NCBI RefSeq assembly: GCF_044647545.1
Contig: NZ_CP172818.1
DNA from: Escherichia coli
GTDB lineage: Bacteria > Pseudomonadota > Gammaproteobacteria > Enterobacterales > Enterobacteriaceae
Length of the DNA: 64,000 nucleotides
Reading direction: 5' to 3' (one strand)
Position 1 is the stretch's first letter. Each line of letters begins with the position of its first letter. Positions 31,969 through 64,000 of the stretch are shown in pieces. Below the pieces are notes generated by a model. The model was given only the letters and a program-made list of their open reading frames with translations, ran no database searches and was not told where the DNA came from. Position numbers and translations under genes: made by a program.

Positions 31969-32011
31969 CAGATGTGTTATACTCGATCAACATTCAATGA
32001 AAGGAGGCAGT

Positions 32012-32059
32012 ATGGCAGTTTCAGCAAGAAATCAATTAACCGGAACAGTTACGCAGTAG
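32012..32059 (+). pseudogene. 15-codon ORF with molbindin (Mop/TOBE)-like N-terminus MAVSARNQLTGTVTQ behind a strong RBS; truncated
   Basis: aaggagg 6 nt upstream of ATG; MxxSARNxLxGxV is the typical start of Mop domains; in-frame TAG after 15 codons. Confidence 0.35.
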
Positions 32060-32139
32060 CAATGGGCGCTTGAATGATGAAGTAGAACCGACGCCGCAGG
32101 TGTGCAAAACTTGCAATTGTTACACACAGCAGCCAGCAG

Positions 32140-32390
32140 GCTCTTGGCCGGGAAAAAGGAAAAAAAGGCGCCCCCCCGAAAAAGCCCCCGGGGGGAAACG
32201 CGGAAAAGAAAAGCGGGGGGGAAACTCCCCCCCCCCACCCGCTGCGCGGCGCGCGGGCAAACACCCGCGAAGGGCGGGGGGAGCCCCCTCCAAAAAAAAA
32301 AAGGGGGGGTTTTAAAATGGGGGGGAAAAAAAAAAAAAAGGAAGGAAAAAAAAACCCCCTAAAAAAAAAACACCAAAAAGGAAAAATTTG
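32140..32390. repeat. low-complexity block dominated by homopolymer runs (A up to 14, C up to 10, G up to 7)
   Basis: read directly; composition atypical for E. coli chromosome; resembles degraded base-calls. Confidence 0.8.
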
Positions 32391-35714: not shown

Positions 35715-36371
35715 ATGCCATCTACACGCTATCAAAAAATTAATGCCCATCACTATCGTTATATATGGGCCGTTGGTGATATTCATGGTGACTATCAATT
35801 ATTACAATCCCGCTTACATCAACTCTCTTTTTGCCCTGAAACCGACTTACTTATTTCCACAGGCGATAATATTGATCGTGGGCCGAAGAGTCTTAACGTG
35901 CTGCACCTGCTAAACCAACCCTGGTTTACGTCGGTTAAAGGCAACCACGAAGCGATGGCGTTGGATGCATTCGAAACTGGCGATGGAAATATGTGGCTTG
36001 CCAGCGGTGGTGACTGGTTTTTCGATTTAAATGATTCAGAGCAACAAGCGGCAATAGATCTGTTGCTGAAATTCCATCACCTTCCACATATTATTGAAGT
36101 TACTAACGACAACACAAAATATGTCATCACACATGCAGATTATCCGGGGAATGAATATCTCTTTGGTAAAGAAATAGCGGAGAGCGAATTACTCTGGCCT
36201 GTTGATCGTGTGCAGAAATCGCTTAATGGCGAGTTACAACAAATAAACGGCGCTGATTATTTTATATTTGGACATATGGTGTTTGATAACATTCAGACGT
36301 TCGCAAACCAGATTTATATTGATACCGGATCGCCGAAAAGCGGGCGGCTGTCATTTTATAAAATAAAGTAG
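35715..36371 (+). CDS. pphB: serine/threonine protein phosphatase 2 (calcineurin-like metallophosphatase)
   Basis: 218 aa ORF with GDIHGD and GDNIDRGP metallophosphatase motifs. Confidence 0.9.
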   Translation: MPSTRYQKINAHHYRYIWAVGDIHGDYQLLQSRLHQLSFCPETDLLISTGDNIDRGPKSLNVLHLLNQPWFTSVKGNHEAMALDAFETGDGNMWLASGGDWFFDLNDSEQQAAIDLLLKFHHLPHIIEVTNDNTKYVITHADYPGNEYLFGKEIAESELLWPVDRVQKSLNGELQQINGADYFIFGHMVFDNIQTFANQIYIDTGSPKSGRLSFYKIK

Positions 36372-36372
36372 T

Positions 36373-36398
36373 CTCATGCTTCTTCTGTGAAGCATGAG
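36373..36398. terminator. 10-bp perfect hairpin (ctcatgcttc-ttctgt-gaagcatgag) between convergent pphB and ygbI
   Basis: read in sequence 2 nt after pphB stop. Confidence 0.5.
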
Positions 36399-36399
36399 T

Positions 36400-37150
36400 A
36401 ACCGAGATGTTCTGCAGGCCCCTACTCATTTTTCGCTACCAGCAAAGAGAGATCCTGCTTCGCCAGCACGCAACTGGCGCTCTCCGGCGAAGCCGCATAT
36501 CTAATAATCTGATCAAACTAGTAATGGTAACGCCAGCCATGTCGCCACCTGACCATATTTCGTCGCATCACAGACCAAAACTCGCTGGCGGCTGGCACTG
36601 GCAATCGCCCGTTTCACCGTGACTTTATCTTTCCGCTGGCGTAAATCCCCCGCACACTCCATGACGATGCAGAAATAAAAACCTGATCAATCATCAGGCT
36701 GCGCAGCATGGTCGCAGCGGCTTCCCCGACACAGGAACGGTTTTCCCGACACACTGCACCGCCAGTGTGAATAATTGTGCAATTACTGTTGTCAGCAAGT
36801 AGTTCGCAATAACGAAATCGTTTGTGACCACAGTCAGTGACTCCATGTGAATCAGATGCTGTGCTATCGCTAACGTGGTCGTTCCCGCATCCAGATAGAT
36901 ACAACTTTCCGGCTGAACAGACTTTTGCCGCCAGCTTGCCAATAGCCGCTTTTTGCGTCATTGCCAGCGCAGTTTTACCTAAGTTCGCCATGCGCCACGC
37001 GTCCCGGAGACTGGACGCCTCCGGACACCCAGCACAACGGCTCCCTGCTGCTCCAGTTTTTGTAAATCCCGACGAATGGTCATATGTGACACATTACTCA
37101 TTCTGTCCGTTAGTTCAGCAATACTGACAATGCCTTTTTCAGCTTATCTC
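36400..37150 (-). pseudogene. ygbI: DeoR-family regulator YgbI, reading frame broken in several places
   Basis: minus-strand translation gives DeoR HTH fragment VSHMTIRRDLQKLEQQGAVVLGV and a C-terminal sugar-binding fragment (ORF 36614..36991) in different frames separated by stops. Confidence 0.5.
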
Positions 37151-37382
37151 AAGGATCATCTGGCGACGCTCTACGGGTATCAACTTTTGCTCCTTCCTTT
37201 GTCCTGCTGACATTCTACGCTATTTGCCTGCGAAACGTGCGCGGCGCAACTAACGCTTAGTTCACATAAAATAACACACAATGTTAATTTATGTGAATCA
37301 GCTCACCATATCGTTATCTTCCAGCGCTTATATTCACAATATCAAACAAAATATCACTTAAATTAACCAACAAGGAGAGCAG

Positions 37383-38291
37383 ATGAAAACGGGATCTGAG
37401 TTTCATGTCGGTATCGTTGGCTTAGGGTGAATGGGAATGGGAGCAGCACTGTCATGTGTCACGAGCAGGTCTTTCTACCTGGGGCGCAGACCTGAACAGC
37501 AATGCCTGCGCTACGTTGAAAGAGGCAGGTGCTTGCGGGGTTGCTTGATAACGCCGCGACGTTTGCCGAAAAACTGGACATTATGCTGGTGCTGGTGGTA
37601 AATGCGGCCCAGGTTAAACAGGTGCTGTTTGGTGAAACGGCGTTTGCACAACATCTGAAACCCGGTACGGCAGTAATGGTTTCTTCCACTATCGCTAGTG
37701 CTGATCGCGCAAGAAATTGCTACCGCTCTGGCTGGATTCGATCTGGAAATGCTGGATGCGCCAGTTTCTGGTGGTGCAGTAAAAGCCGCTAACGGTGAAA
37801 TGACTGTCATGGCCTCCGGTAGCGATATTGCCTTTGAACGACTGGCACCCGTGCTGGAAGCCGTTGCCGGAAAAGTTTATCGCATAGGTGCAGAACCGGG
37901 ACTAAAGAGTTCGACCATTAAAGTTCTTCACCAGTTAGCGGGCGTACATATTGCTGCCGGAGCCGAAGCGATGGCACTTGCAGCCCGTGGGATCCCGCTG
38001 GATGTGATGTATGACGTCGTGACCAATGCCGCCGGAAATTCCTGGATGTTCGAAAACCAGATACGTCATGTGGTGGATGGCGATTACACCCCGCATTCAG
38101 CCGTCGATATTTTTGTTAAGGATCTTGGTCTGGTTGCCGATACAGCCAAAGCCCTGCACTTCCCGCTGCCATTGGCCTCAACAGCATTGAATATGTTCAC
38201 CAGCGCCAGTAACGCGGGTTACGGGAAAGAAGACGATAGCGCAGTTATCAAGATTTTCTCTGGCATCACTCTACCGGGAGCGAAATCATGA
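37383..38291 (+). pseudogene. ygbJ: 3-hydroxyisobutyrate dehydrogenase-family enzyme YgbJ (putative L-threonate dehydrogenase) with premature stop and compensating frameshifts
   Basis: ATG 37383 then GIVGLG Rossmann start, TGA at codon 16 (37428); middle segment readable in frame of ORF 37529..37792 and C-terminal 197 aa in ORF 37698..38291; total span 909 nt equals an intact 302-aa gene. Confidence 0.55.
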
Positions 38292-39454
38292 TCAAGATTG
38301 GCGTTATCGCCGATGATTTTACCGGCGCGACGGATATCGCCAGTTTTCTGGTGGAAAACGGTCTACCAACGGTACAAATTAACGGTGTTCCAACAGGTAA
38401 AATGCCGGAAGCAATCGACGCACTGGTGATCAGCCTGAAAACGCGCTCCTGTCCAGTGGTTGAAGCCACACAGCAATCGCTGGCGGCTCTGAGCTGGTTG
38501 CAACAGCAAGGTTGCAAACAGATCTATTTCAAATACTGCTCTACTTTCGACAGTACGGCGAAAGGTAATATTGGCCCGGTTACCGATGCCTTAATGGATG
38601 CTCTCGACACGCCGTTTACGGTCTTCTCTCCGGCCCTGCCGGTCAACGGACGTACGGTTTATCAGGGGTATTTGTTCGTAATGAATCAACTGCTGGCCGA
38701 ATCCGGGATGCGCCATCACCCGGTAAATCCCATGACCGACAGCTATCTTCCCCGTCTGGTTGAAGCGCAATCCACAGGGCGCTGCGGCGTCGTTTCGGCA
38801 CATGTTTTCGAACAAGGTGTGGATGCCGTTCGTCAAGAGCTGGCTCGCTTACAGCAAGAGGGCTACCGCTACGCGGTGCTTGATGCGCTGACCGAACACC
38901 ATCTGGAAATTCAGGGAGAAGCCTTGCGCGATGCCCCACTGGTAACGGGCGGTTCTGGTCTGGCGATTGGCCTGGCCCGGCAGTGGGCGCAAGAAAACGG
39001 TAACCAGGCTCGCAAAGCAGGGCGTCCGCTCGCTGGGCGCGGCGTAGTGCTCTCCGGTTCATGCTCTCAAATGACCAACCGCCAGGTAGCACATTACCGT
39101 CAAATTGCACCAGCCCGTGAAGTTGATGTGGCACGCTGCCTCTCAATTGAAACTCTGGCCGCTTATGCACACGAACTGGCAGAGTGGGTTCTGGGCCAGG
39201 AAAGTGTACTTGCTCCACTGGTTTTTGCCACCGCCAGCACTGACGCATTGGCAGCAATTCAACAGCAATACGGTGCACAAAAAGCCAGTCAGGCAGTAGA
39301 AACACTGTTTTCTCAACTAGCGGCGCGGTTAGCAGCGGAAGGCGTGACACGCTTTATTGTCGCAGGCGGTGAGACCTCCGGCGTAGTCACACAGAGCCTG
39401 GGAATAAAAGGGTTTCATATTGGCCCAACCATTTCCCCGGCGTGCCGTGGGTAA
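38288..39454 (+). CDS. ygbK: four-carbon acid sugar kinase family protein YgbK (putative 3-oxo-tetronate kinase)
   Basis: 388 aa ORF MIKIGVIADDFTGATDIASFL (DUF1537 N-terminus); 4-bp overlap with ygbJ stop. Confidence 0.8.
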   Translation: MIKIGVIADDFTGATDIASFLVENGLPTVQINGVPTGKMPEAIDALVISLKTRSCPVVEATQQSLAALSWLQQQGCKQIYFKYCSTFDSTAKGNIGPVTDALMDALDTPFTVFSPALPVNGRTVYQGYLFVMNQLLAESGMRHHPVNPMTDSYLPRLVEAQSTGRCGVVSAHVFEQGVDAVRQELARLQQEGYRYAVLDALTEHHLEIQGEALRDAPLVTGGSGLAIGLARQWAQENGNQARKAGRPLAGRGVVLSGSCSQMTNRQVAHYRQIAPAREVDVARCLSIETLAAYAHELAEWVLGQESVLAPLVFATASTDALAAIQQQYGAQKASQAVETLFSQLAARLAAEGVTRFIVAGGETSGVVTQSLGIKGFHIGPTISPACRG

Positions 39455-39545
39455 ACGCACTGGATAAGCCTGTCTCACTCGCCCTTAAATCTGGCAACTT
39501 CGGTGATGACGCCTTTTTTTCACGAGCCCAAAGAGAGTTTTTATC

Positions 39546-40184
39546 ATGAGCGATTTCGCAAAAGTAGAGCAGTCTTTGCGAGAGGAGATGACGCGGATTG
39601 CCAGTTCATTCTTTCAGCGCGGCTATGCAACCGGTTCGGCTGGCAATCTGTCGCTGCTTTTACCTGACGGGAATTTACTGGCGACACCGACAGGTTCATG
39701 CCTGGGCAATCTCGATCCGCAGCGGCTTTCCAAAGTCGCCGCGGATGGCGAATGGTTAAGTGGTGACAAACCCTCGAAAGAGGTGCTCTTTCATCTGGCG
39801 CTGTATCGCAACAATCCGCGCTGTAAAGCGGTGGTGCATTTGCACAGCACATGGTCGACGGCGCTTTCCTGCCTGCAAGGGCTGGACAGCAGCAACGTTA
39901 TTCGTCCGTTCACACCATACGTGGTGATGCGGATGGGAAATGTCCCGCTGGTGCCTTATTACCGACCGGGCGATAAACGCATCGCACAGGATCTGGCGGA
40001 ACTGGCAGCAGACAATCAGGCTTTTTTACTGGCAAATCATGGCCCAGTGGTTTGCGGTGAAAGCCTGCAAGAAGCCGCCAACAATATGGAAGAGCTGGAG
40101 GAAACGGCAAAGCTGATTTTTATTCTCGGTGACCGCCCGATCCGTTATCTGACCGCAGGTGAAATTGCGGAATTAAGGAGTTAA
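39546..40184 (+). CDS. ygbL: class II aldolase/adducin-family protein YgbL (putative 3-oxo-tetronate 4-phosphate decarboxylase)
   Basis: 212 aa ORF, class II aldolase fold signature (HLHS, GS). Confidence 0.8.
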
Positions 40185-40188
40185 TGCA

Positions 40189-40965
40189 ATGCCTCGTTTT
40201 GCAGCTAATTTATCCATGATGTTCACCGAAGTGCCTTTTATTGAACGCTTCGCCGCAGCGCGAAAAGCCGGGTTCGATGCTGTGGAATTTCTGTTTCCCT
40301 ATAACTACTCCACCCTGCAAATCCAAAAGCAACTGGAGCAAAACCATCTGACACTGGCGCTGTTCAATACCGCTCCCGGAGATATTAATGCGGGGGAATG
40401 GGGATTATCCGCCCTTCCCGGACGTGAGCACGAAGCACACGCAGACATCGACCTGGCACTGGAATATGCATTGGCGCTCAATTGTGAACAAGTCCATGTG
40501 ATGGCAGGCGTCGTGCCCGCTGGCGAAGATGCTGAACGGTACCGGGCAGTATTTATCGATAATATCCGCTACGCTGCCGACCGCTTTGCGCCACACGGCA
40601 AGCGAATATTAGTTGAAGCACTCAGCCCCGGCGTTAAGCCTCATTATCTCTTCTCCAGCCAGTATCAGGCACTGGCTATTGTTGAAGAGGTTGCGCGAGA
40701 TAACGTGTTTATTCAACTAGATACTTTTCATGCGCAAAAAGTAGATGGCAACCTGACGCATTTAATCCGCGACTACGCCGGGAAATATGCGCACGTACAA
40801 ATTGCCGGACTACCTGATCGACATGAACCGGACGATGGAGAAATCAACTATCCGTGGCTGTTCCGCCTGTTCGATGAGGTGGGATATCAGGGCTGGATCG
40901 GTTGTGAATATAAACCTCGTGGCCTCACCGAAGAAGGGCTTGGCTGGTTTGACGCCTGGCGCTAA
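40189..40965 (+). CDS. ygbM: hydroxypyruvate isomerase-like TIM-barrel protein YgbM (putative 2-oxo-tetronate isomerase)
   Basis: 258 aa ORF, xylose isomerase-like TIM barrel. Confidence 0.8.
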
Positions 40966-41053
40966 TTCGTTAAATCCCTAATTACAACGTACCCATACAT
41001 CCCCCCATCTACGGATGGGGTAGGTTAACTATAACTTTCAGACAGGGTTTCCC

Positions 41054-42418
41054 ATGTCCACAATTACATTGTTATGCATTGCGTTAGCTGGCGTAATCAT
41101 GCTGTTGCTGCTGGTCATCAAGGCAAAGGTACAACCATTCGTTGCTTTGCTCCTCGTCAGCCTGTTAGTCGCACTTGCGGCAGGTATACCGGCGGGCGAA
41201 GTGGGTAAAGTGATGATCGCCGGGATGGGCGGTGTGCTTGGTTCCGTCACTATTATTATTGGTCTGGGCGCTATGCTGGGGCGTATGATCGAACACTCTG
41301 GTGGTGCAGAGTCACTGGCTAATTATTTCAGTCGCAAGTTAGGTGACAAACGAACTATCGCTGCGCTGACTCTGGCAGCGTTCTTCCTCGGTATTCCCGT
41401 CTTCTTTGATGTCGGCTTTATTATTCTTGCGCCAATCATTTACGGTTTTGCCAAGGTTGCCAAAATATCGCCACTCAAATTTGGCCTGCCTGTCGCTGGG
41501 ATCATGCTCACTGTTCACGTGGCGGTACCGCCGCATCCAGGCCCTGTCGCCGCAGCGGGGTTACTCCACGCAGACATCGGCTGGCTAACCATCATCGGTA
41601 TTGCGATTTCTATTCCCGTAGGGGTTGTTGGCTACTTTGCAGCGAAAATAATCAATAAGCGCCAATATGCGATGTCAGTAGAAGTACTGGAACAGATGCA
41701 ACTGGCTCCGGCCAGTGAGGAAGGCGCGACAAAATTAAGCGATAAAATAAATCCACCGGGCGTCGCGCTGGTCACCTCGCTAATTGTTATTCCTATCGCG
41801 ATTATCATGGCGGGTACGGTTTCCGCAACACTGATGCCGCCTTCGCATCCCCTGCTTGGTACGCTACAGCTGATCGGCTCACCAATGGTAGCTCTAATGA
41901 TTGCGCTGGTGCTGGCATTCTGGTTATTGGCTTTACGTCGCGGCTGGAGCTTACAACACACCAGCGACATTATGGGCTCAGCGCTTCCTACTGCGGCGGT
42001 AGTGATTTTGGTTACTGGTGCTGGAGGGGTATTTGGCAAAGTGCTGGTGGAATCGGGCGTCGGCAAAGCCCTTGCCAACATGCTACAAATGATTGACCTG
42101 CCTCTGTTACCAGCCGCATTTATTATTTCACTGGCGCTGCGTGCATCGCAGGGGTCAGCAACCGTAGCAATACTGACAACCGGCGGGTTACTCTCAGAAG
42201 CGGTGATGGGATTGAATCCGATTCAGTGCGTATTGGTGACGCTGGCAGCCTGCTTTGGTGGGCTTGGTGCGTCACATATTAATGACTCAGGGTTCTGGAT
42301 TGTGACCAAATATCTGGGGTTGTCGGTAGCAGACGGTCTGAAAACCTGGACAGTGTTAACGACCATTCTCGGTTTTACCGGATTCTTAATTACCTGGTGC
42401 GTATGGGCGGTAATTTGA
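41054..42418 (+). CDS. ygbN: GntP-family acid sugar transporter
   Basis: 454 aa polytopic membrane ORF. Confidence 0.85.
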   Translation: MSTITLLCIALAGVIMLLLLVIKAKVQPFVALLLVSLLVALAAGIPAGEVGKVMIAGMGGVLGSVTIIIGLGAMLGRMIEHSGGAESLANYFSRKLGDKRTIAALTLAAFFLGIPVFFDVGFIILAPIIYGFAKVAKISPLKFGLPVAGIMLTVHVAVPPHPGPVAAAGLLHADIGWLTIIGIAISIPVGVVGYFAAKIINKRQYAMSVEVLEQMQLAPASEEGATKLSDKINPPGVALVTSLIVIPIAIIMAGTVSATLMPPSHPLLGTLQLIGSPMVALMIALVLAFWLLALRRGWSLQHTSDIMGSALPTAAVVILVTGAGGVFGKVLVESGVGKALANMLQMIDLPLLPAAFIISLALRASQGSATVAILTTGGLLSEAVMGLNPIQCVLVTLAACFGGLGASHINDSGFWIVTKYLGLSVADGLKTWTVLTTILGFTGFLITWCVWAVI

Positions 42419-42424
42419 CCTTAA

Positions 42425-42457
42425 TAAAAAGGTCCGATGGGCATCGGACCTTTTATT
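42425..42457. terminator. bidirectional intrinsic terminator between ygbN and rpoS
   Basis: aaaa-ggtccgat-gggc-atcggacc-ttttatt: 8-bp GC-rich stem flanked by A-run and T-run. Confidence 0.8.
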
Positions 42458-42511
42458 GTGCACAGAAAAGGCCAGCCTCATAAGAGACTGGCCTTTATGA
42501 CAGATGCTTAC

Positions 42512-52533: not shown

Positions 52534-53571
52534 ATGTTTTCCGCATTGCGCCACCGTACCGCTGCCCTGGCGCTCGGCGTATGCTTTATTCTCCCCGTAC
52601 ACGCCTCGTCACCTAAACCTGGCGATTTTGCTAATACCCAGGCACGACATATTGCTACTTTCTTTCCGGGACGCATGACCGGAACTCCTGCAGAAATGTT
52701 ATCTGCCGATTATATTCGCCAACAGTTTCAGCAAATGGGTTATCGCAGTGATATTCGGACATTTAATAGTCGGTATATTTATACCGCCCGCGATAATCGC
52801 AAGAGCTGGCATAACGTGACGGGAAGTACGGTGATTGCCGCTCATGAAGGCAAAGCTCCGCAGCAGATTATCATTATGGCGCATCTGGATACTTACGCCC
52901 CGCTGAGCGATGCTGACGCCGATGCCAATCTCGGCGGGCTGACGTTACAAGGAATGGATGATAACGCCGCAGGTTTAGGTGTCATGCTGGAATTGGCAGA
53001 ACGCCTGAAAAATACGCCTACCGAGTATGGTATTCGATTTGTGGCGACCAGCGGCGAAGAGGAAGGGAAATTAGGCGCTGAGAATTTACTCAAGCGGATG
53101 AGTGACACCGAAAAGAAAAATACGCTGCTGGTGATTAATCTCGATAACTTAATTGTTGGCGATAAATTGTATTTCAACAGTGGTGTAAAAACCCCTGAAG
53201 CAGTAAGGAAATTAACGCGCGACAGGGCACTGGCAATTGCGCGTAGTCATGGAATTGCCGCAACGACCAATCCGGGTTTGAATAAAAATTATCCGAAGGG
53301 TACTGGCTGTTGTAATGACGCCGAAGTTTTCGACAAAGCCGGTATTGCGGTACTTTCGGTGGAGGCGACCAACTGGAATCTTGGAAATAAGGATGGTTAT
53401 CAGCAACGCTCAAAAACACCGGCCTTCCCGGCGGGAAATAGCTGGCATGATGTAAGGCTTGATAATCAACAGCATATTGATAAGGCGCTTCCTGGAAGAA
53501 TAGAACGTCGTTGCCGTGATGTTATGCGGATAATACTACCGCTGGTGAAGAAACTGGCGAAGGCGTCTTGA
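52534..53571 (+). CDS. iap: alkaline phosphatase isozyme conversion aminopeptidase (M28 family)
   Basis: 345 aa ORF with signal peptide and M28 peptidase metal-binding motifs. Confidence 0.9.
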   Translation: MFSALRHRTAALALGVCFILPVHASSPKPGDFANTQARHIATFFPGRMTGTPAEMLSADYIRQQFQQMGYRSDIRTFNSRYIYTARDNRKSWHNVTGSTVIAAHEGKAPQQIIIMAHLDTYAPLSDADADANLGGLTLQGMDDNAAGLGVMLELAERLKNTPTEYGIRFVATSGEEEGKLGAENLLKRMSDTEKKNTLLVINLDNLIVGDKLYFNSGVKTPEAVRKLTRDRALAIARSHGIAATTNPGLNKNYPKGTGCCNDAEVFDKAGIAVLSVEATNWNLGNKDGYQQRSKTPAFPAGNSWHDVRLDNQQHIDKALPGRIERRCRDVMRIILPLVKKLAKAS

Positions 53572-53652
53572 TGGGTTTGAAAATGGGAGCTGCGAGTTCT
53601 ACCGCAGGGGCGGGGAATTCTAAGTGATATCCATCATCGCATCCAGTGCGCC

Positions 53653-54418
53653 CGGTTTATCCCCGCTGGCGCGGGGAATCGCCGGAAAATATTCATGATG
53701 GGGGTGGTTATGGCGGTTTATCCCCGCTGGCGCGGGGAATCTCGGGGCCGCCGTGTTCACATTTGCCTAATTTCCCGGTTTATCCCCGCTGGCGCGGGGA
53801 ACTCTATCATAAACGAGGTGAATTTATGGAAACTGTACGGTTTATCCCCGCTGGCGCGGGGAACTCGTTAGTTTTCGAAAAAATTGTTTTCTTACGCTGG
53901 TTTATCCCCGCTGGCGCGGGGAACTCAATTATTGTCGTGGACAAATGCCGGTGTTATTGCGGTTTATCCCCGCTGGCGCGGGGAACTCATTCGAGACAAT
54001 CTCTCAAAATTAATGAAATCGGTTTATCCCCGCTGGCGCGGGGAACTCCAGGTATCAAGAAATAATCGAAGCCTTCATGACGGTTTATCCCCGCTGGCGC
54101 GGGGAACTCAATTGATTGCTGGGTGATATTGGAAAATGTTGCGGTTTATCCCCGCTGGCGCGGGGAACTCCTACCGTACAGATCCTGACCGGATATTATT
54201 TTTTTGCGGTTTATCCCCGCTGGCGCGGGGAACTCCGACGTTCGACGAAATGCGCGATGGCGGTCGGCGGTTTATCCCCGCTGGCGCGGGGAACTCTTCT
54301 GCGTCCCCGATGTCTGGCCCGACTGGTCCGGTTTATCCCCGCTGGCGCGGGGAACTCTATATGACCGGAACACTTCCGCCTGACGTTTGCGGTTTATCCC
54401 CGCTGGCGCGGGGAACTC
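53653..54418 (-). CRISPR. type I-E CRISPR array: 13 copies of 29-bp repeat (minus-strand GAGTTCCCCGCGCCAGCGGGGATAAACCG), 12 spacers
   Basis: repeat starts on + strand at 53653, 53714, 53776, 53838, 53898, 53960, 54020, 54081, 54142, 54207, 54268, 54329, 54390; distal repeats degenerate; spacers about 31-33 nt except one of 36 nt. Confidence 0.97.
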
Positions 54419-54523
54419 TCTAAAAGTATACATTTGTTCTTAAAGCATTTTTTCCCATAAAAACAACCCACCAACCTTAATGTAACATTTCCTTATTATT
54501 AAAGATCAGCTAATTCTTTGTTT
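54419..54523 (-). promoter_or_regulatory. AT-rich CRISPR leader between cas2 stop and first repeat
   Basis: 105 bp AT-rich tract adjacent to consensus repeats; the degenerate repeat is at the opposite end. Confidence 0.8.
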
Positions 54524-55727
<1,204 letters not shown>

Positions 55728-55742
55728 TTTATTACACCTAAA

Positions 55743-56342
55743 TCACAGTGGAGCCAAAGATAGCAAGCCACATCCCATCGATTTAGCTGGCCCAATACCT
55801 TGCTGTACAAGATCTATTAACGCTGGCGCGTCGTTGATGGTGATCACCCCTTCAAAGCAAACCGTTTGAATCTTTCCACTTTTACCATCACCAGAAAAAT
55901 ACTGTGGCCGTTCCGATATGGGATGCACATCTTCAACGCGCGCCGCATTGCCCAATTTACGTTGCAACCACGCGATTTGTTCTGCTTCTTTTATTAACGG
56001 AACCCGACAGCGTTTAATATTCCCTTTACTGTCCAGGCGCTTTTGATTGTCGAGAATAGTTTTGATCGGATTTGCCCGAAGCCGAAAATAGAGTGGAACA
56101 CCAACCTGAAGTTGAAATTCAACCTGTTTAGTTTTAATGACTGTCGCAACGGCAGTTGAAACAGGCATTTGCGCTGACTGCAATAAAACATGACAGCCTT
56201 CTGGTGTGTTTCGCTTCTCAACATGAAAAAGAAAATCACGAGCAGCATCCGGTCTGTTTGGAAATAAATGCCATAATCCCTGGTGAAGTTGGTAAAGATC
56301 CCTGCTCCAGGCCCTGGCAATGATGACTTTACTGAGATACAT
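55743..56342 (-). CDS. casE: Cascade pre-crRNA endoribonuclease CasE (Cas6e/Cse3)
   Basis: 199 aa ORF MYLSKVIIARAWSRDLYQLHQGLW. Confidence 0.93.
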   Translation of the reverse strand: MYLSKVIIARAWSRDLYQLHQGLWHLFPNRPDAARDFLFHVEKRNTPEGCHVLLQSAQMPVSTAVATVIKTKQVEFQLQVGVPLYFRLRANPIKTILDNQKRLDSKGNIKRCRVPLIKEAEQIAWLQRKLGNAARVEDVHPISERPQYFSGDGKSGKIQTVCFEGVITINDAPALIDLVQQGIGPAKSMGCGLLSLAPL

Positions 56343-57003
56343 CCATACCTCCTTTAATCACATACCATTCTCGGGAAGCAAATTGTCGAGGTAAGGTGAT
56401 CATCGGTTCGTCGCGCGCCGTAAATTTTAAATAATGCCCTGTAACTGATTCCTCACTATAAATATCGCCGCCAACGGGCTCATAATTTAATAGCGCCTTC
56501 TGAGGATCCGATGCCTTACATGTCCCCAAAAAAAGCGGGTGTGTTAGTGGGCAACTTCTCCGCCCCAGGTAGGGTGTATACCGAGGCTTTAATACTGCTT
56601 TTTCAAGTTCTGAGATAACCATCGTTGCATGGGGTGTTAACCAGAGAGCGACGGTAAAGGAGGCATCACATAAATATTCGCGCCATGTTTGAATCGTTTC
56701 ATGACTTTTCAAACCACGGTAATCTTCTCGCGCTCCAAGGACTGTATGGTAATCACGCAACCCCGTTACAGACACACGACGATCGTCAAGAATGAGTTCA
56801 TCGCAGCGCACTGCAAATTGCACACTCTCTGATAACGCCTGTAATGAAGAAGTATCATCACGTTGGATCCCAAGACAAGCACCGAGTAGCCCTAATAACC
56901 CGCTTCGGGTCGGAAATCTTCCGGTAGGTCGCGTTCCTTCAAAGGTCGGCTGCCCCCAGGCTTGCATTGGCCCAGCAAGCCGCAAGATCAAATAAGATCT
57001 CAT
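56329..57003 (-). CDS. casD: Cascade subunit CasD (Cas5e)
   Basis: ORF trimmed to MRSYLILRLAGPMQAWG; 224 aa. Confidence 0.92.
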   Translation of the reverse strand: MRSYLILRLAGPMQAWGQPTFEGTRPTGRFPTRSGLLGLLGACLGIQRDDTSSLQALSESVQFAVRCDELILDDRRVSVTGLRDYHTVLGAREDYRGLKSHETIQTWREYLCDASFTVALWLTPHATMVISELEKAVLKPRYTPYLGRRSCPLTHPLFLGTCKASDPQKALLNYEPVGGDIYSEESVTGHYLKFTARDEPMITLPRQFASREWYVIKGGMDVSQ

Positions 57004-57005
57004 GT

Positions 57006-58097
57006 TCACGCCTCGCCATTATTACGAACCCAGGATTTTAACTGTTCTAAAGTAGGCATTTGTTTAACTTGAGCAGTAATTGGGTCTACATCAGATAAGC
57101 TGAATTGCGCAGCAGCTCCGTTCAGACCATATCCATTGGCAACGCGATCCCAATATTGATTAAAAGCCTGTATAGACGGTTGCAAAAAGCCATCTTTCGC
57201 TTTAACCGCTTTTTCAAAAGCATTTGCCATAGAAAGTGGCATATCGGAGAAATTAACCATTACCATATCCGCAGGGTTAAAAGCGGCATAAGTACGCTGT
57301 TTTGCTCCAGGGACCTCTGTTGCCAGCATATGAACAACATGGGTTGCAATTTCCAGAGCCTGCTCCCTGGAGGCACCACCTAAATTTTCCTGAAGTTGAG
57401 CGAGGTTAATGTTGGCATAACGATAAAAAACACCCGATGAAAATTCCTGAGTTCCCAGATGTGCAGAACCTTGTTCCTGTAAATCATCTACAGCGGTGAA
57501 CCAGTCAATATCAGAATCAACCTGATGAGTAGTGATCGCATGCGCAATGGACATTGCACCATCAACTTTTCCCAACTCACTCATCATGCCGCTGGTTGCC
57601 ATTCTTCCACTAAGCGCAATATCAACACCCTGCTGTAAATTCACACGTATGGCGGCAATATCTTCCTTAAGAACTTTGAGCAGCTTTTTATCATCCAGAT
57701 TATCAGCCTCTGCTTTTGCAACCTGCTCACAGAACCAGGCTATTTCTCCCACAACCCAGGGAGTAACCGCATCGGCAGAAATCTTTTCGGCTTCATCAAC
57801 TAATTTACCGGAGAGCAGCGCTAATGTCTTATCGATGATTTTTTGGTCAAAACGTTCACCAAGTTTTTGCCGAAGAACATCACGTAATTGTGCAAGATGA
57901 ATTGTTCTGAGACTGGATTCACCAATATTTTGTGCGTAATAATCACTTTTACGCATCGCACGTTTAAGGCTTTGACTTGAAATTCTTACTCGTCTTTTCC
58001 CGCCGAAAATAGCGTCTTTCTGCATGTTCATATCGTCGCGGTTCAGACATGAAGGGCTGTGAGAAATCAGAACATGAATATTGATAAAGTTAGACAT
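57006..58097 (-). CDS. casC: Cascade backbone subunit CasC (Cas7e/Cse4)
   Basis: 363 aa [25 protein letters not shown]. Confidence 0.93.
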
Positions 58098-58109
58098 AGA
58101 AAGGTTTCC

Positions 58110-58592
58110 TTACGCATTTTTGTTTGTGGTCAATACAAAATCTTCCAGAAGTTGCTGGCGTTCGCGCTTTCCCCACCAGGTCAACATCCTGGCCATTAAT
58201 GGCCAGTCAAGTACGGGTTCGGCGTGAGTAAGTAATCGACGTAACTGGACCATATCGGCTGTTCTGTCAGCCCGAATTAATTGAAAGATACGGCGCTCGT
58301 TAATTCTTCCACTATTGGCTAAAGCTCTTCCCAACGAGATACCTGTTGTTTGCTCCGGTTTTTTGTCCTGATGTCGGATGACATTCTTTCCTGCGCTCAG
58401 GCAAAACACCATGCGCAAAAGAGCCTGCTGGTGACGTGGGTTTTCCCAACCAAAAGGTTGCACCAGCCTATAAAACGCAGGGATATCGCGTAATTCATCA
58501 GGTTCTGAAACACGTCTAATTTGCGCACATGCTCCATTATCCAGTTGTTGCCAGGCTCGATATAAAGCCATTGCATCAATTTCATCAGCCAT
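58110..58592 (-). CDS. casB: Cascade small subunit CasB (Cse2)
   Basis: 160 aa ORF MADEIDAMALYRAWQQL. Confidence 0.93.
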   Translation of the reverse strand: MADEIDAMALYRAWQQLDNGACAQIRRVSEPDELRDIPAFYRLVQPFGWENPRHQQALLRMVFCLSAGKNVIRHQDKKPEQTTGISLGRALANSGRINERRIFQLIRADRTADMVQLRRLLTHAEPVLDWPLMARMLTWWGKRERQQLLEDFVLTTNKNA

Positions 58593-60093
58593 TTGATGGC
58601 CCTCCTTGCGGTTTTAACTCCCGTAAATGTTTGTATAGCGTGGCGCGGGCAAGCGCTAATGTGCTTATTAATTTAGGATGATGTGCATAGGGAGCTTCAG
58701 ATTGATTAAATAGCATTTCACACAATTGATGAAGTTTGTCTCGTAAATCAGCTATTACCTCATCAGCTTGGGAAAAATTAATATTCGCCAGTACATCGGG
58801 AATTAATAATTCACTCTGTCGATAGAAATGCCTTTCTGCAGTCTCATGAACAGAGACTCCGGCCCCTTTGAAATCTTTATTTTTAAACCCTTCTGCAAAG
58901 GTATATAACGCCTTGCGTAAGGCTGTTTTATATCCCAAACCAACAGTCACTATTTCGTTTATCACATTGCCGTATTGTTGCCACCCCTGATTAAACATCA
59001 ACACATCATGACGCCGTTCAAGAATAGATGCTTGATTATTACGATATCCCCCCATAATCAATTCAAGAGGACTTTGCGGCGCAATATTTCTGAATTGATT
59101 CACAACCGCCGCCACGCGATTTCCATTTTCATTTTGAATAATCTTATCTACCACAACTCGGCTGATTTGTGTCCATGATGGTGCGGAGGTGGTGAAAGCA
59201 AGAAATTTTTCCTCAACCTCCCCTTTCTTGACTGTTACCAGACAAGGGGAATGCGGATGGGGCCATAGCCCATTAACTGTAAAGGTAAATTTTTCCTTAA
59301 GAAAACCGGTATAACGCAAATTGCTTTCCTGTCCACAGCAAGAACATTTACCAATCCCAATGGGATCGCATAATTCAATATGCGCTGGTTGCCAGAATAA
59401 GCCACGGACAAACCCAATTGACGAAGCTGGCACAGATTCATTGGGTTTGACAGGCTTAACCCAGGTAGGTTGGTTTTCCGTATGTAATTCATTGGGAAAT
59501 TGTTTTTGAAGACGAGGTATTGTGAGGACATTGAGTAATACCGTCGAGCGAAGATCGATCCCACATACGAAGGTGGTTATAGGTGTTCCTCCACGTAAAC
59601 CGCTTTTAAAGCCACCACCAAAACCAGGTGCCTGATTCGCCTGGTTGAATAACGCAATCGCAGTGCATCCACCACATAATGCTTCACCCTGCCCCGGTTG
59701 ATTGACAAATGCACAATTCGTCGCGCCGCTTACCCCAGCCAACAGTTTTTCCATTGGAGTCACATCATTTGCTTTGACACCTTTGGTCTGCATAAAGGGA
59801 TGTTCTGCGTGATTAAGGTAGAACATATCTATCCACGGCGCGATGAGTTGTTGAAACTCATCTTCAGTGAGCGGATTCATTATGCGATGTCGAAATTCAA
59901 CGTCATCTTTTGCCGGGGCGATAATTTGCCCAATGCAAACCAGCAGTGCTAAAGCGGCCAGTTCCATATCGTCACGGGGCAAACTTAATCGCCACTGATC
60001 TCTACTGCAGTATAGCGATTGCAGATTTATGATTTGGACTTCCCCCCCGTTTCGCGGGCGTACAGGGATCCAGTTATCAATAAGCAAATTCAT
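58585..60093 (-). CDS. casA: Cascade large subunit CasA (Cse1)
   Basis: 502 aa ORF MNLLIDNWIPVRPRNGGEVQIINLQSLY. Confidence 0.93.
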   Translation of the reverse strand: MNLLIDNWIPVRPRNGGEVQIINLQSLYCSRDQWRLSLPRDDMELAALALLVCIGQIIAPAKDDVEFRHRIMNPLTEDEFQQLIAPWIDMFYLNHAEHPFMQTKGVKANDVTPMEKLLAGVSGATNCAFVNQPGQGEALCGGCTAIALFNQANQAPGFGGGFKSGLRGGTPITTFVCGIDLRSTVLLNVLTIPRLQKQFPNELHTENQPTWVKPVKPNESVPASSIGFVRGLFWQPAHIELCDPIGIGKCSCCGQESNLRYTGFLKEKFTFTVNGLWPHPHSPCLVTVKKGEVEEKFLAFTTSAPSWTQISRVVVDKIIQNENGNRVAAVVNQFRNIAPQSPLELIMGGYRNNQASILERRHDVLMFNQGWQQYGNVINEIVTVGLGYKTALRKALYTFAEGFKNKDFKGAGVSVHETAERHFYRQSELLIPDVLANINFSQADEVIADLRDKLHQLCEMLFNQSEAPYAHHPKLISTLALARATLYKHLRELKPQGGPSNG

Positions 60094-60507
60094 TTGTTCT
60101 CCTTCATATGCTCCGACATTTCTCCTGCATTTCTATACGTCGGCACACTTCCGTTATCGGTAAAAACAAAGAAAAAATACGGCGTAATTAATTCAATAAT
60201 CACATTCACTGCAAAAATATATTCATTGGTTTAATACAATTAACCTATGCATATATTAAGATGTGTTGAATTGTTTAAAGACAATAATGCATGCATTTCA
60301 AATCTGCAAGTTATTCGTTTTATTATCAAAGAAATTTTTAGTTATAATAATTACCATAAATTTTATTACATAAAATATTCATACTGTGAATATAAAATCT
60401 CATACCGGGAAATTAAAAGAAGATGTACATTGTGCACCTTCCCTACTTAAGTAGGGATAAACCGTTATTGGTCTTGTTATCGTCATTGATACCAATCATT
60501 CCCGAAG
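60094..60507. promoter_or_regulatory. AT-rich casA-cas3 intergenic region; expected site of Pcas promoter and H-NS/LeuO control
   Basis: 414 bp, strongly AT-rich, upstream of casA; contains 16-bp perfect palindrome ccctacttaagtaggg at 60441..60456; regulatory roles are from established K-12 literature, not read from sequence. Confidence 0.6.
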
Positions 60508-63174
60508 TTATTTGGGATTTGCAGGGATGACTCTGGTCATCCCTTCATCCCGAGTGTAGGTAATAACAATATTATTACCCTGCCAGATCCATCCATCCTG
60601 ATTCTGTTTCCCTTCCAGCCAAAGTACCCCATCTTCATCTACTACTTCAGAAAAATTACGTTTCCAGGTGAAGGGTACATTGACGCGATTAAGTGCTAAC
60701 GCCTCATACTGCTGTTCATGACTTAGGTCCTCGTAGACCTGGCCATCGAGCAGTTGTTTACCTGAAGACGTTTGTAAATAAGGCAATAATGGCAGGCTCA
60801 TTTCCCCATCCCTCGTTACCGCAAGAATTGTTTCATCGTTATCCTGCAAGCTATATTCTTCAGCCCACTGCAGAACCTTGCGAGCCTTGAACCTCTTTTC
60901 ACACTCAGCACTTTCATACTTATCCATGCCTTTGATGACCCATTCTGGCTCATCCATTTCAGCATCATCGTAAATGCTATCCAGCCATTGCCGGTAGGCA
61001 TCAGGGAAAAATAAGGATGCTCCATTAAGTTCCTCAATATGTTGCTGCGTCCGCCACATGACTCTAACGTTGCTATAAATATGCTCATGTCGTCCGTAAC
61101 CTTCGCCATCAGGCAGCAAAACGCTGGCAAGAGGAACCTCAAAACCAGCGGGACGATATTTGCGATGATGGCGATGTAAACGGCCCAATCGTTGGAAAAG
61201 TAAATCTGCGGGGCAATGCTGAGTAATTAACCAATCAAAATCAACGTCGAGTGATTGTTCCACGACCTGGGTGGCGACAAGTATCCGTCCAACATTTCGC
61301 TTCCCATTTTTGCCGAAATTGCTAATAACTCGATTCTCTTTTTCACGACGATCGTTCAGCGTAAAGCGCGCATGAAACAAATCTATATCTACTTGCGTGT
61401 TATTTAGTTCCTTTAACCGTTGGTGGCATAGTTGTGCAACATCAACCAAATTGCAGATAAGACAGACTTGTGCACCCGCATTTGCCGCTACGATCATTCG
61501 CTCTAACATCCTAAGGTCAGGTAACATGTCAGCTAAATAAATAGGTTCTGGCCGAATCGAAAAGCGGGGCGGGAGTTGTTCTGAATGAGCTAACAGATCA
61601 AAACGTTGTGCACCATTCACACCTCGCCAGTTAATGAGTGGATATGCGGAGTTATTTTCCTCTGGATCTGTATGCAGACCATAAGTATCCAGAAGTTTCT
61701 GTTTTTGTTTCATTGGTAGAGTTGCGGAAAGAAGAATAACACTCCCCCCCACATCAGCCTGAGCCTTGAGCACAGCCTCCAGCAAGCCGTTCATATACGT
61801 GTCGTAAGCATGAACTTCATCAACAATTAAAACACTTCGACCAATTCCCAAACCACGGATAAAGCGGTGTTTAACTGGCAATACCGATATCAACACCTGA
61901 TCAATCGTGCAAACGCCGATTTGCCCAAGAAACACTTTCTTATTGCTTTGTGACAACCACTGACAACACTGAACCCATGCTTCTTCTTGCCCCTGCTCAG
62001 TAAATGCGCGTGATTTTATTGATTGAAAAAGGTGGTTAAAACGTGAATTACCATGAGCAAGAATAAGATTTGGGGAGGTAAATAAACGGCTCGCGTTCGC
62101 TTCCATTCTGCTGAGCATTGCATTTGCAGTAGCTTGTGTAGGGAGGGCAAAAATAACACTATCCGCAAGTTGTTGGTCAATAAGTTTCCAGGCATAGGCC
62201 AGCGCTGTTTCGGTTTTACCTGATCCCGTAGGTGCCTCAATCACCGTCAGCCCGGGAGCTGCAGGAAGAGCATCAACTAACACTTGTAATTGTCTGGGTT
62301 GATAGCCATTGTCCAGTAGAGCATGAACACCTTCATAACATCGCTTATTTGATACAAGGCCGCTCAACTCCAATACCCGGCTCGCATCCTGCTGTCGGTC
62401 CTGGAAATACGTTCTTAGAGCATTTATGTTGGAAGGTGCATCCTCTTTAAACAGAAAGGTATTCGTTGTAGTCCAGGAGCCTAACCAGTCAGCAAGCGAG
62501 CAAAAACCTGCTAACAGTGATGAACAATCAGGTGGTATATCGTTTATAGATAACCCGGCTGGCGTTAAAAATAATGCTTCGAGTACAGATATCCACTCCT
62601 CACGAGCCTGTTTATCTTGCGCAGCATAAGATGCCAGAGAAGCTGGCATTTCCCAACGCGACTTATCTTGATCCTGGGAATGTAATATAAAACCATGATG
62701 TCCTGTAACGGCCTCTACCCATGGAAACCAGGACTCATAAGGATGAGGAGCGGCATCAAAAAAACTGAAAAAATCCCCGGGAGATTGCTCTGAAAGTGAA
62801 TCCTGGTTAAACCAATACAGACCGGCTGCACCATGATTAAATTTACGGCACATTTGTGTTGATGGACCATTAAGTGATGGCGTTGCAGGATTTAATTTCA
62901 GCCAACTTTCTGCTGATTTATATTGGAATCGTATATCAAACTTTCCGATATCATGAAGGGCAATGAAAAATAACAGCCAGGCTTTCACCATCTGTTTTGA
63001 TAGCATTTCATTTTGGCAAAAAGCATTTTGTAGTACGACTGATTGTTCCCACCAGCAATCTGCAACAGCTGCAACATCCAGGCAATGATAAATCAACAGA
63101 TGAATATCATTTCCTTTCGTCAGGCTTTTTGAGGATTTCCCCCAGTAATGACATATATATTTAAAAGGTTCCAT
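60508..63174 (-). CDS. cas3: CRISPR-associated nuclease/helicase Cas3
   Basis: 888 aa ORF with N-terminal HD nuclease motif (ALHDIGKFD) and SF2 helicase Walker A (APTGSGKTE) and DEVH box (LIVDEVHAYD). Confidence 0.95.
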   Translation of the reverse strand: MEPFKYICHYWGKSSKSLTKGNDIHLLIYHCLDVAAVADCWWEQSVVLQNAFCQNEMLSKQMVKAWLLFFIALHDIGKFDIRFQYKSAESWLKLNPATPSLNGPSTQMCRKFNHGAAGLYWFNQDSLSEQSPGDFFSFFDAAPHPYESWFPWVEAVTGHHGFILHSQDQDKSRWEMPASLASYAAQDKQAREEWISVLEALFLTPAGLSINDIPPDCSSLLAGFCSLADWLGSWTTTNTFLFKEDAPSNINALRTYFQDRQQDASRVLELSGLVSNKRCYEGVHALLDNGYQPRQLQVLVDALPAAPGLTVIEAPTGSGKTETALAYAWKLIDQQLADSVIFALPTQATANAMLSRMEANASRLFTSPNLILAHGNSRFNHLFQSIKSRAFTEQGQEEAWVQCCQWLSQSNKKVFLGQIGVCTIDQVLISVLPVKHRFIRGLGIGRSVLIVDEVHAYDTYMNGLLEAVLKAQADVGGSVILLSATLPMKQKQKLLDTYGLHTDPEENNSAYPLINWRGVNGAQRFDLLAHSEQLPPRFSIRPEPIYLADMLPDLRMLERMIVAANAGAQVCLICNLVDVAQLCHQRLKELNNTQVDIDLFHARFTLNDRREKENRVISNFGKNGKRNVGRILVATQVVEQSLDVDFDWLITQHCPADLLFQRLGRLHRHHRKYRPAGFEVPLASVLLPDGEGYGRHEHIYSNVRVMWRTQQHIEELNGASLFFPDAYRQWLDSIYDDAEMDEPEWVIKGMDKYESAECEKRFKARKVLQWAEEYSLQDNDETILAVTRDGEMSLPLLPYLQTSSGKQLLDGQVYEDLSHEQQYEALALNRVNVPFTWKRNFSEVVDEDGVLWLEGKQNQDGWIWQGNNIVITYTRDEGMTRVIPANPK

Positions 63175-63532
63175 TAATAGCCTCCCTGTTTTTTTAGTAT
63201 TATCGATGATATCAGTGGACTATTTTTCGATGCTGCTCATAAATATCGAATTACAGTGATATACACATGTCTTGCCTCCCTGCAAAGAAGAGACTAACAT
63301 CCGAATTGCTTAGGTTCGAACGCTGGCCTCAGGTTGATAGAAATATCGCCTGGGGCTTTTGTCCATCTGGTACCTCGCGAATGCTTAATGCCAGACAGCC
63401 TCAAGCACCCAACGCCATTCTATACCTGTTAATTCTTCCAACGACGTTCACGTTTAAAATCAGGAATGCTGCTCGCAAAATAAAAACGCCCCCATCATTT
63501 CTGACAGAGGCGTTTAATTTATCCGGCAATAT

Positions 63533-64000
63533 TTACCCTTCGTGTAATCCACATTCCCTTTTTAAGCCAAAGAAACGCGTTTCTTCTTCCGCCATGCCGG
63601 GTTCCCATTTACGGGTTGTATGGGTATCGCCCACCGATAAATATCCTTCGTCCCATAATGGGTGATATTTCAGGCCATGTTTTTGCAGGTACTGATATAT
63701 CGTTCGGTTATTCCAGTCGATAATCGGCAGCACTTTAAATACGCCACGCTGAATTGCCAGCACCGGTAAATTGGCGCGGCTGCCGGATTGTTCACGGCGC
63801 AGGCCAGCAAACCACGTTTGCGCATTCAGTTCTTTCAGCGCCCGGTTCATCGGTTCGACTTTGTTGATGTCATTGTACTTTTCAATGCCTTCAACGCCCT
63901 GCTCCCACAGTTTGCCGTAGCGTGCTTCCTGCCAGGCGGCGCTTTCAGTAGCACGGTACACTTTCAGGTTGAGCTTGAGTTTGTCCGTTAACTCGTCAAT
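63533..64000 (-). CDS. cysH: phosphoadenosine phosphosulfate reductase, C-terminal part (N-terminus lies beyond window end)
   Basis: ORF 63533..63961 and upstream in-frame sequence match CysH C-terminus (...ECGLHEG); truncated by window edge. Confidence 0.9.

What the first reader, a model, noticed from the sequence alone, without database searches (positions are those of the whole stretch)
53653..54523. CRISPR array architecture: degenerate distal repeats and one oversized spacer
The array has 13 repeats and 12 spacers, with the AT-rich leader on the cas2 side (54419-54523). The leader-distal repeat (53653-53681) ends ...ggggaatcg instead of ...ggggaactc, the next repeat (53714-53742) ends ...ggggaatct, and the repeat at 53898 starts with t instead of c. 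Spacer 54171-54206 is about 36 nt and contains a T7 run, whereas most others are 32 nt. That could be an indel in a homopolymer or an atypical acquisition. Spacer targets cannot be assigned without a search.
Basis: seen in the sequence. Interest (0 to 1): 0.45.

Follow-up and report, generated by a model that had tools for sequence, protein, structure and literature searches.

The report
E. coli CRISPR array with sequencing errors
This is an ordinary E. coli type I-E CRISPR array, and its "degenerate" distal repeats and 36-base spacer are almost certainly single-base errors in this sequence record, because closely related genomes and the matching phage DNA show perfect repeats and 32-base spacers.

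Summary
The explanation offered for them does not hold.

- **Private differences.** The window is base-for-base identical to E. coli WP4-S18-ESBL-09 across 42466-64000. The only exceptions are 13 differences (12 single-base indels, 1 substitution), all inside 53678-54188.
- **Sister arrays are regular.** In that genome and two other sister arrays, every repeat is perfect and every spacer is 32 nt (one is 33).
- **The 36-nt spacer.** It is a 32-nt spacer with 4 scattered extra bases. The T7 run is unchanged. The window's spelling occurs in none of 5,426 complete E. coli genomes. The 32-nt spelling occurs in 55 of them, and also in the second CRISPR array (CRISPR-II) of E. coli BL21.
- **Phage evidence.** Two of the altered spacers have perfect 32/32 phage protospacers with an AAG PAM. 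Both match the sister spelling.
- **Record quality.** The window has two other junk or indel-dense patches, at 31975-32386 and 36404-37988.

Real features that remain are a degenerate 14th repeat with a 13th spacer, a PAM-derived T at 53898, and one 33-nt spacer. All are known biology. Interest is low.

The parts
53592..54418 (-). Type I-E CRISPR array (CRISPR-I, between iap and cas2). It has 13 good repeats plus 1 degenerate terminal repeat, and 13 spacers (S1 is nearest the leader, S13 is distal).
   Evidence: The sister genome annotates the equivalent stretch as CRISPR. The repeat folds into a 7-bp hairpin at -15.1 kcal/mol.
54419..54523 (-). Leader, 105 nt, 27% GC. Across these 105 nt it is identical to the K-12 MG1655 leader.
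54524..54808 (-). cas2e
   Evidence: TIGR01873 at E=7e-42. Coordinates agree with the sister genome annotation.
54810..55727 (-). cas1e. The rest of the I-E operon (cas6e, cas5e, cas7e, casB, casA, cas3) follows, out to about 63174.
   Evidence: TIGR03638 at E=2e-113. Window 54189-64000 is 100% identical to the annotated sister locus.
53592..53620 (-). Truly degenerate terminal repeat R14 (18/29 identical to the consensus, weak hairpin at -7.3 kcal/mol).
   Evidence: It is identical in the three sister genomes. K-12's copy differs at only a few bases.
53621..53652 (-). Terminal spacer S13 (32 nt), shared with K-12 and many other E. coli.
53678..54188 (.). Stretch holding all 13 differences private to this record (8 inserted bases, 4 deleted bases, 1 substitution). 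It covers R13, R12, S10, S9, S8, S7 and S4.
   Evidence: 0 differences in the other ~21 kb aligned. (three sister arrays agree against the window at every site). Clustering p is about 4e-19.
53653..53681 (-). Repeat R13. The ending "...AATCG" is a perfect repeat with one C missing, after 53678. The true spacer S12 is then 53681-53713, 33 nt.
53714..53742 (-). Repeat R12. The ending "...AATCT" is a perfect repeat with one extra T at 53740. The true repeat runs to 53743 and S11 is 32 nt.
54171..54206 (-). Spacer S4, the "oversized" 36-nt spacer. It is the canonical 32-nt CAAAAAAATAATATCCGGCAGTCTGTACGGTA (crRNA sense) plus 4 extra bases at 54171, 54183, 54184 and 54188.
   Evidence: No E. coli genome has the 36-nt spelling. 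The 32-nt spelling is in 55 genomes with CRISPR-I flanks and is exact in BL21 CRISPR-II.
53989..54019 (-). Spacer S7, 31 nt here with 4 changes. The canonical 32-nt form has a perfect protospacer with an AAG PAM in a lambdoid prophage contig.
53805..53837 (-). Spacer S10, 33 nt here with one extra base at 53808. The canonical 32-nt form has a perfect protospacer with an AAG PAM in the same prophage contig.
53898..53898 (-). T on the plus strand, which is A at the last position of repeat R9 in crRNA sense (CCA instead of CCG). This variant is real and shared with sister genomes. It is the PAM-derived nucleotide of spacer S9.
   Evidence: present in WP4-S18-ESBL-09 and FDAARGOS_497. Mechanism from PMC3338789.
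54297..54328 (-). Spacer S2, intact. It partly matches P2-like (Peduoviridae) phages: 21/21 at the PAM-proximal end, 27/32 overall, with an AAG PAM.

Best explanation
The locus is a standard E. coli type I-E CRISPR-I array on the minus strand.

**How the array works (from E. coli K-12 studies, not tested here).** The array is transcribed from the leader next to cas2. Cas6e cuts each repeat hairpin to give 61-nt crRNAs. Cascade and Cas3 attack DNA whose protospacer follows an AAG PAM. Cas1-Cas2 add new spacers at the leader end.

**What the irregularities are.** The two "degenerate" distal repeats, the 36-nt spacer and four other off-length spacers are not biology. They are single-base insertion and deletion errors in this record, confined to a low-quality stretch of about 510 bp (53678-54188). 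I infer this stretch is a poor read or a gap closure across the hairpin-rich array. With the errors removed, all 13 canonical repeats are perfect apart from the real T at 53898, and the spacers are 32 nt, with one real 33-mer.

**What is real.** The genuine departures from uniformity are:
- the degenerate 14th repeat with its conserved terminal spacer;
- the CCA repeat end at 53898, whose last nucleotide was copied from a non-G PAM position when spacer S9 was acquired;
- the 33-nt spacer S12.
For: 1. Window 42466-64000 aligns to NZ_AP022098.1 with 13 differences in 21.5 kb. All 13 lie inside 53678-54188, and 12 of them are 1-nt indels. The chance of such clustering is about 4e-19.
2. Three sister arrays differ from one another by whole spacer-repeat units, yet agree with each other against the window at all 13 sites.
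3. The window's spelling of S4 with 20-nt flanks has no match in 5,426 complete E. coli genomes. The 32-nt spelling is in 55 genomes. It is also exact in a different array, CRISPR-II of BL21 and other E. coli B strains.
4. Canonical S7 and S10 have perfect 32/32 protospacers with an AAG PAM in prophage contig IMGVR_UViG_2529293142_000021. Both follow the sister spelling, not the window's.
5. The same window has other corrupt patches. Homopolymer junk at 31975-32386 replaces a TOBE-domain gene. Another 42 indel positions at 36404-37988 break ygbI and ltnD.
6. All 13 errors fall at offsets 25-46 of the 61-nt unit, just 3' of the repeat hairpin on the plus strand (Rayleigh p about 4e-4). A structure-related read artefact would be expected to produce this pattern.
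7. PMC3338789 documents PAM-derived last repeat nucleotides (a CCA end with AAA or CGA PAMs) and 32- or 33-nt spacers in this system.
Against: - I could not see reads or quality values, and I could not identify the source record. Four exact-protein look-ups with ORFs from the corrupt patches found nothing.
- The errors are mostly not in homopolymers, and their rate (about 2.5%) does not point to one sequencing technology.
- Errors are under-represented in repeat bases: 2 of 13, against 46% of bases being repeat (p=0.03). Selection on real mutations could also produce that.
- No protospacer was found for S4 itself.
Confidence: 0.9

Rival explanations
1. The 13 changes are real mutations in this isolate. 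On this reading, a localized burst of ±1 indels arose just 3' of the repeat hairpins, for example from replication slippage or error-prone repair at stalled forks. The result would be a partly crippled array with a 36-nt spacer.
For: The changes sit at a consistent position relative to the hairpin. They largely spare the repeat hairpin itself.
Against: - There are no other differences in 21 kb of flank, and the ratio is 12 indels to 1 substitution.
- The same window holds plainly non-biological junk at 31975-32386 and a second indel-dense patch that breaks conserved genes.
- No other genome shares any of these changes.
Confidence: 0.05
2. The distal repeats are naturally decayed old repeats, and the 36-nt spacer comes from a homopolymer indel or from an atypical, long acquisition by Cas1-Cas2.
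For: Distal repeat decay is real in E. coli. K-12's three distal repeats carry substitutions, and both arrays end in a degenerate repeat. Spacers of 33 nt do occur.
Against: - The distal repeats are perfect in sister genomes that are otherwise identical. The window's versions differ by an indel, not by substitutions.
- The T7 run is the same in the 32-nt and 36-nt forms.
- The 32-nt form is widespread and occurs in two different array loci.
- Four separate insertions cannot come from one acquisition event.
Confidence: 0.02
3. The window is a chimera or consensus of mixed strains, so the odd spellings are alleles from another strain's array.
For: The window carries the K-12-type ygbI-ygbN segment, where its otherwise identical relative has a different mutS-rpoS insert.
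Against: None of 5,426 complete genomes carries the window's S4 spelling. The best full-length array matches all show the canonical spelling. Mixing real alleles would not create novel single-base indels.
Confidence: 0.02

Closest known systems
E. coli K-12 MG1655 CRISPR-I array (CRISPR 2.1, between iap and cas2)
   Same: - Same chromosomal position.
- Same 29-nt repeat.
- Same leader (105/105 nt).
- Same terminal spacer and a near-identical degenerate terminal repeat.
- Same count of 13 good repeats.
- 61-nt register with occasional 33-nt spacers.
   Different: None of the 12 non-terminal spacers is shared. K-12's three distal repeats are degenerate by substitutions that keep the register, whereas the window's two differ by ±1 indels.
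CRISPR-I arrays of E. coli WP4-S18-ESBL-09, 4973, EC11 and MS14385 (NZ_AP022098.1 and others)
   Same: Same 13 spacers in the same order. For WP4-S18-ESBL-09, the aligned flanks, including iap, cas2e, cas1e and the cas operon, are 100% identical.
   Different: These arrays measure 977 bp against the window's 981 bp. Their repeats are perfect and their spacers are 32 nt (S12 is 33). The window differs at 13 private sites.
CRISPR-II (ygcE-queE) array of E. coli BL21 and other E. coli B strains
   Same: It contains the exact 32-nt canonical form of the "oversized" spacer S4.
   Different: It is a different locus with the GTGTT repeat variant, and all its other spacers differ.

Membership tests
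E. coli type I-E CRISPR array (CRISPR-I / 2.1) | 29-nt repeat matching GWGTTCCCCGCGCCAGCGGGGATAAACCG, with a hairpin | tested here: met
   10 perfect copies and 3 near-perfect copies. A 7-bp hairpin at -15.1 kcal/mol. The consensus is quoted from PMC3338789.
E. coli type I-E CRISPR array (CRISPR-I / 2.1) | Spacers of 32-33 nt in a 61-62 nt register | tested here: inconclusive
   As written, 10 of 13 spacers are 32-33 nt, two are 31 nt and one is 36 nt. All 13 are 32-33 nt in the sister genome, and the deviations are attributed to record errors.
E. coli type I-E CRISPR array (CRISPR-I / 2.1) | AT-rich leader, with adjacent cas1e-cas2e and a type I-E cas operon, located between iap and cas2 | tested here: met
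   Leader at 27% GC, identical to K-12. Cas2e and Cas1e pass the NCBIfam cut-offs. The sister annotation lists iap and cas3 through cas6e.
E. coli type I-E CRISPR array (CRISPR-I / 2.1) | Spacers derive from mobile DNA next to an AAG PAM | tested here: met
   S7 and S10 match 32/32 with an AAG PAM in a lambdoid prophage contig. S2 matches 27/32 with AAG in P2-like phages. The other spacers have no target found.
E. coli type I-E CRISPR array (CRISPR-I / 2.1) | Transcription and Cas6e processing into 61-nt crRNAs, and interference activity | not testable with these tools
   No expression data are available. The consensus promoter scan found nothing in the leader.
Naturally degenerate distal CRISPR repeats | The variant repeat is inherited, meaning it is shared by related strains | tested here: not met
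   R12 and R13 are perfect in all three sister arrays. Only R14 (53592-53620) meets this test.
Sequence-record error patch | Differences are private to the record, dominated by indels, tightly clustered in an otherwise identical background, and accompanied by other such patches in the same record | tested here: met
Sequence-record error patch | Low read quality or coverage at the site in the raw data | not testable with these tools
   The source record was not identified, and no reads are available.

The most novel reading that the evidence does not exclude
The 13 private changes are real. An otherwise clonal isolate suffered a burst of single-base indels placed just 3' of successive CRISPR repeat hairpins. 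That would point to hairpin-triggered local mutagenesis in CRISPR arrays, and it would yield a crRNA with a 36-nt spacer.
Probability: 0.04. Interest if true: 0.55.

Novelty: already known. Interest (0 to 1): 0.07.

Why it matters
The main value is as a caution. Spacer-length and repeat-decay "anomalies" seen in a single record can be read errors, and a comparison with near-identical genomes and with protospacers settles the matter quickly. The result also flags that this source record contains several low-quality patches, so other oddities in the window, such as frameshifts and broken genes, should be treated with suspicion. The biology that remains is textbook type I-E behaviour: a PAM-derived last repeat base, a 33-nt spacer, a conserved terminal spacer and AAG-flanked phage targets.

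Tried and rejected
- **Tandem Repeats Finder** on 53000-55000 returned nothing, because the spacers break the tandem identity.
- **Rfam** at gathering threshold gave no match for the repeats.
- **Consensus promoter scan** found no sigma-70-like site in the leader.
- **Source record.** I tried exact look-ups of four aberrant ORFs from the corrupt patches, and all four failed.
- **Canonical array as a megablast query** gave identity figures blurred by piece-joining, so they could not be used to count genomes. I replaced this with spacer-plus-20-nt-flank queries.
- **BLAST of all 13 canonical spacers plus the 36-nt variant.**
  - Against INPHARED phages, only the weak S2 hit appeared.
  - Against PLSDB plasmids, only the terminal spacer S13 matched, mostly in chromosome-sized records filed as plasmids.
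- **IMG/VR pattern scans** found nothing for S1, S3, S4 (two designs, one accepting either spelling) or S8.
- **E. coli genome search with 12 spacers.** All 60 sampled rows out of 400 records were CRISPR arrays. A few prophage protospacers among the unsampled rows cannot be excluded.
- **Rejected explanations:**
  - Homopolymer slippage, because the T7 run is unchanged.
  - A mismatch-repair-defective mutator background, because the changes are patchy rather than genome-wide.

Full report
**Observation.**
- A scan with the 29-nt consensus finds 13 repeats between 53653 and 54418.
- The two distal repeats end in AATCG and AATCT.
- The repeat at 53898 starts with T.
- The spacer at 54171-54206 is 36 nt and has a T7 run at 54199-54205.
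- The leader at 54419-54523 is 27% GC and abuts cas2e at 54524-54808 on the minus strand, followed by cas1e.

Two things were missed.
- Five more spacers are off-length. The hand-boundary lengths from the distal end are 32, 33, 33, 31, 33, 31, 32, 32, 36, 32, 32, 32.
- A 14th, truly degenerate repeat lies in register at 53592-53620 (18/29 identical), with a 13th spacer at 53621-53652.

**What the locus is.** It is the E. coli type I-E CRISPR-I array between iap and cas2, on the minus strand.
- The leader is identical to K-12 MG1655 over its 105 nt.
- The terminal spacer is identical to K-12's, and the degenerate terminal repeat is nearly so.
- None of the other 12 spacers is shared with K-12, so this is not the K-12 array.
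- The same 13 spacers in the same order occur in four complete genomes: WP4-S18-ESBL-09, 4973, EC11 and MS14385.

**The decisive comparison.** Window 42466-64000 (21.5 kb) covers rpoS through cysH, including iap and the whole cas operon. It aligns to NZ_AP022098.1 with only 13 differences.
- All 13 lie inside 53678-54188. They are 8 inserted bases, 4 deleted bases and 1 substitution.
- The chance that 13 scattered differences fall in one 511-nt span of that alignment is about 4e-19.
- In the sister genome every repeat is perfect, apart from the shared T at the position of 53898. Every spacer is 32 nt, apart from one 33-mer.
- The ending "AATCG" is AACTC|G with the C missing. The ending "AATCT" is AACTC with an extra T.
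- The 36-nt spacer is TACCGTACAGACTGCCGGATATTATTTTTTTG with four extra bases at 54171, 54183, 54184 and 54188. The T7 run is the same in both forms.
- WP4-S18-ESBL-09, MINF_9A and FDAARGOS_497 differ from one another by whole spacer-repeat units, which is normal CRISPR evolution. All three agree against the window at all 13 sites.

**Independent evidence on which spelling is original.**
- The window's S4 with 20-nt flanks matches none of 5,426 complete E. coli genomes.
- The 32-nt form with CRISPR-I flanks is found in 55 genomes.
- The exact 32-mer also sits in a different array, CRISPR-II (ygcE-queE) of BL21 and other E. coli B strains, flanked by the GTGTT repeat variant.
- Canonical S7 has a perfect 32/32 protospacer preceded by AAG in IMG/VR contig 2529293142_000021. 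It lies in an ORF of unknown function (phrog_5176), between a Q-like antiterminator gene and an endolysin gene.
- Canonical S10 has a perfect 32/32 protospacer with AAG about 10 kb away in the same contig, on the other strand.
- Both protospacers follow the sister spelling. The window's S7 (four changes) and S10 (one extra base) are therefore derived copies.

**Quality of the record.** The window has other corrupt patches.
- At 31975-32386 a TOBE-domain gene degrades into homopolymer junk.
- At 36404-37988 there are 42 indel positions relative to the best match. They fragment ygbI and ltnD, while the next 4 kb is nearly identical.
- Isolated single-base deletions occur at 10742 and 39434.

Within the array, all 13 errors sit at offsets 25-46 of the 61-nt unit, just 3' of the hairpin stem on the plus strand (Rayleigh p about 4e-4). 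This fits a read artefact linked to secondary structure. The technology behind it is an inference I cannot verify.

**What remains real, and how the array works.**
- The T at 53898 is shared with sister genomes. It makes repeat R9 end in CCA in crRNA sense.
- Swarts et al. 2012 (PMC3338789) showed that the last repeat nucleotide is copied from the PAM. They saw CCA ends paired with AAA or CGA PAMs, and spacers of 32 or 33 nt.
- S9 was therefore taken next to a non-consensus PAM, and the 33-nt S12 is ordinary variation.
- The 33-nt matches between other E. coli spacers and the prophage segment (the PAM G plus 32 nt) illustrate the same rule.
- Transcription from the leader, Cas6e processing, interference by Cascade and Cas3, and leader-end integration by Cas1-Cas2 are taken from K-12 knowledge. 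None of these was tested here.

**Spacer targets.**
- S7 and S10 target a lambdoid prophage contig with perfect matches and an AAG PAM.
- S2 matches P2-like Peduoviridae, such as Salmonella phage SI7 and 30 IMG/VR contigs. The match is 21/21 at the PAM-proximal end and 27/32 overall, and 20 of the 30 contigs have an AAG PAM.
- The other spacers have no target in the INPHARED phage or PLSDB plasmid searches, and the IMG/VR scans for S1, S3, S4 and S8 also found nothing.

**Rivals.**
- Real local mutagenesis is not excluded without reads. It is unlikely given the 12:1 ratio of indels to substitutions, the spotless flanks and the junk elsewhere in the window.
- A mixed-strain chimera would not create spellings that no genome has.

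**Verdict.** This is a known kind of array. The flagged irregularities are most likely (about 0.9) errors in the record. Interest is low.

Noticed in passing
window 31975-32386: The sequence degrades into homopolymer-rich junk (for example GGAAAAAGGAAAAAAAGGCGCCCCCCCGAAAAAGCCCCCGGGGG). The sister genome has an intact TOBE-domain gene here. It looks like the tail of a low-quality read left in the assembly.
   Followed up: partly
window 36404-37988: There are 42 indel positions plus substitutions relative to the best E. coli match, and they fragment ygbI and ltnD. From 38000 to 42250 the sequence is nearly identical to that match.
   Followed up: partly
window 36370-42466: The window carries the K-12-type ygbI-ygbN segment in the mutS-rpoS interval. 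Its otherwise identical relative WP4-S18-ESBL-09 carries a hydroxyarylic acid decarboxylase cluster there. This may be a known polymorphic region, or a sign of a chimeric or reference-guided assembly.
   Followed up: partly
window 18031/18032, 10742 and 39434: About 563 bp present in the sister genome is absent at 18031/18032. That stretch holds a helix-turn-helix gene and part of a small hypothetical gene. Single-base deletions relative to relatives also occur at 10742, near the 3' end of hypF, and at 39434, which truncates otnK.
   Followed up: no
window 54171-54206; L008 1201-1232: The same 32-nt spacer (S4) sits in CRISPR-I in this lineage and in CRISPR-II (ygcE-queE) in BL21, other E. coli B strains and many more. 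This means either independent acquisition of the same protospacer or exchange between arrays.
   Followed up: partly
L040 5176-6341 and L041 4121-4152 (IMGVR_UViG_2529293142_000021): S7 and S10 hit the same 41-kb lambdoid prophage contig on opposite strands. A 1.2-kb segment of that contig is matched by CRISPR spacers at three different sites across 146 complete E. coli genomes, yet the segment itself is present in none of them.
   Followed up: partly
L002 and L003 versus window 53776-53960: Sister arrays differ by whole units. FDAARGOS_497 and MINF_9A have an extra spacer (AACATGTCTTTCGTCAATTTTGGCGCTATAAA) between S10 and S11, and MINF_9A lacks the S8 unit.
   Followed up: no
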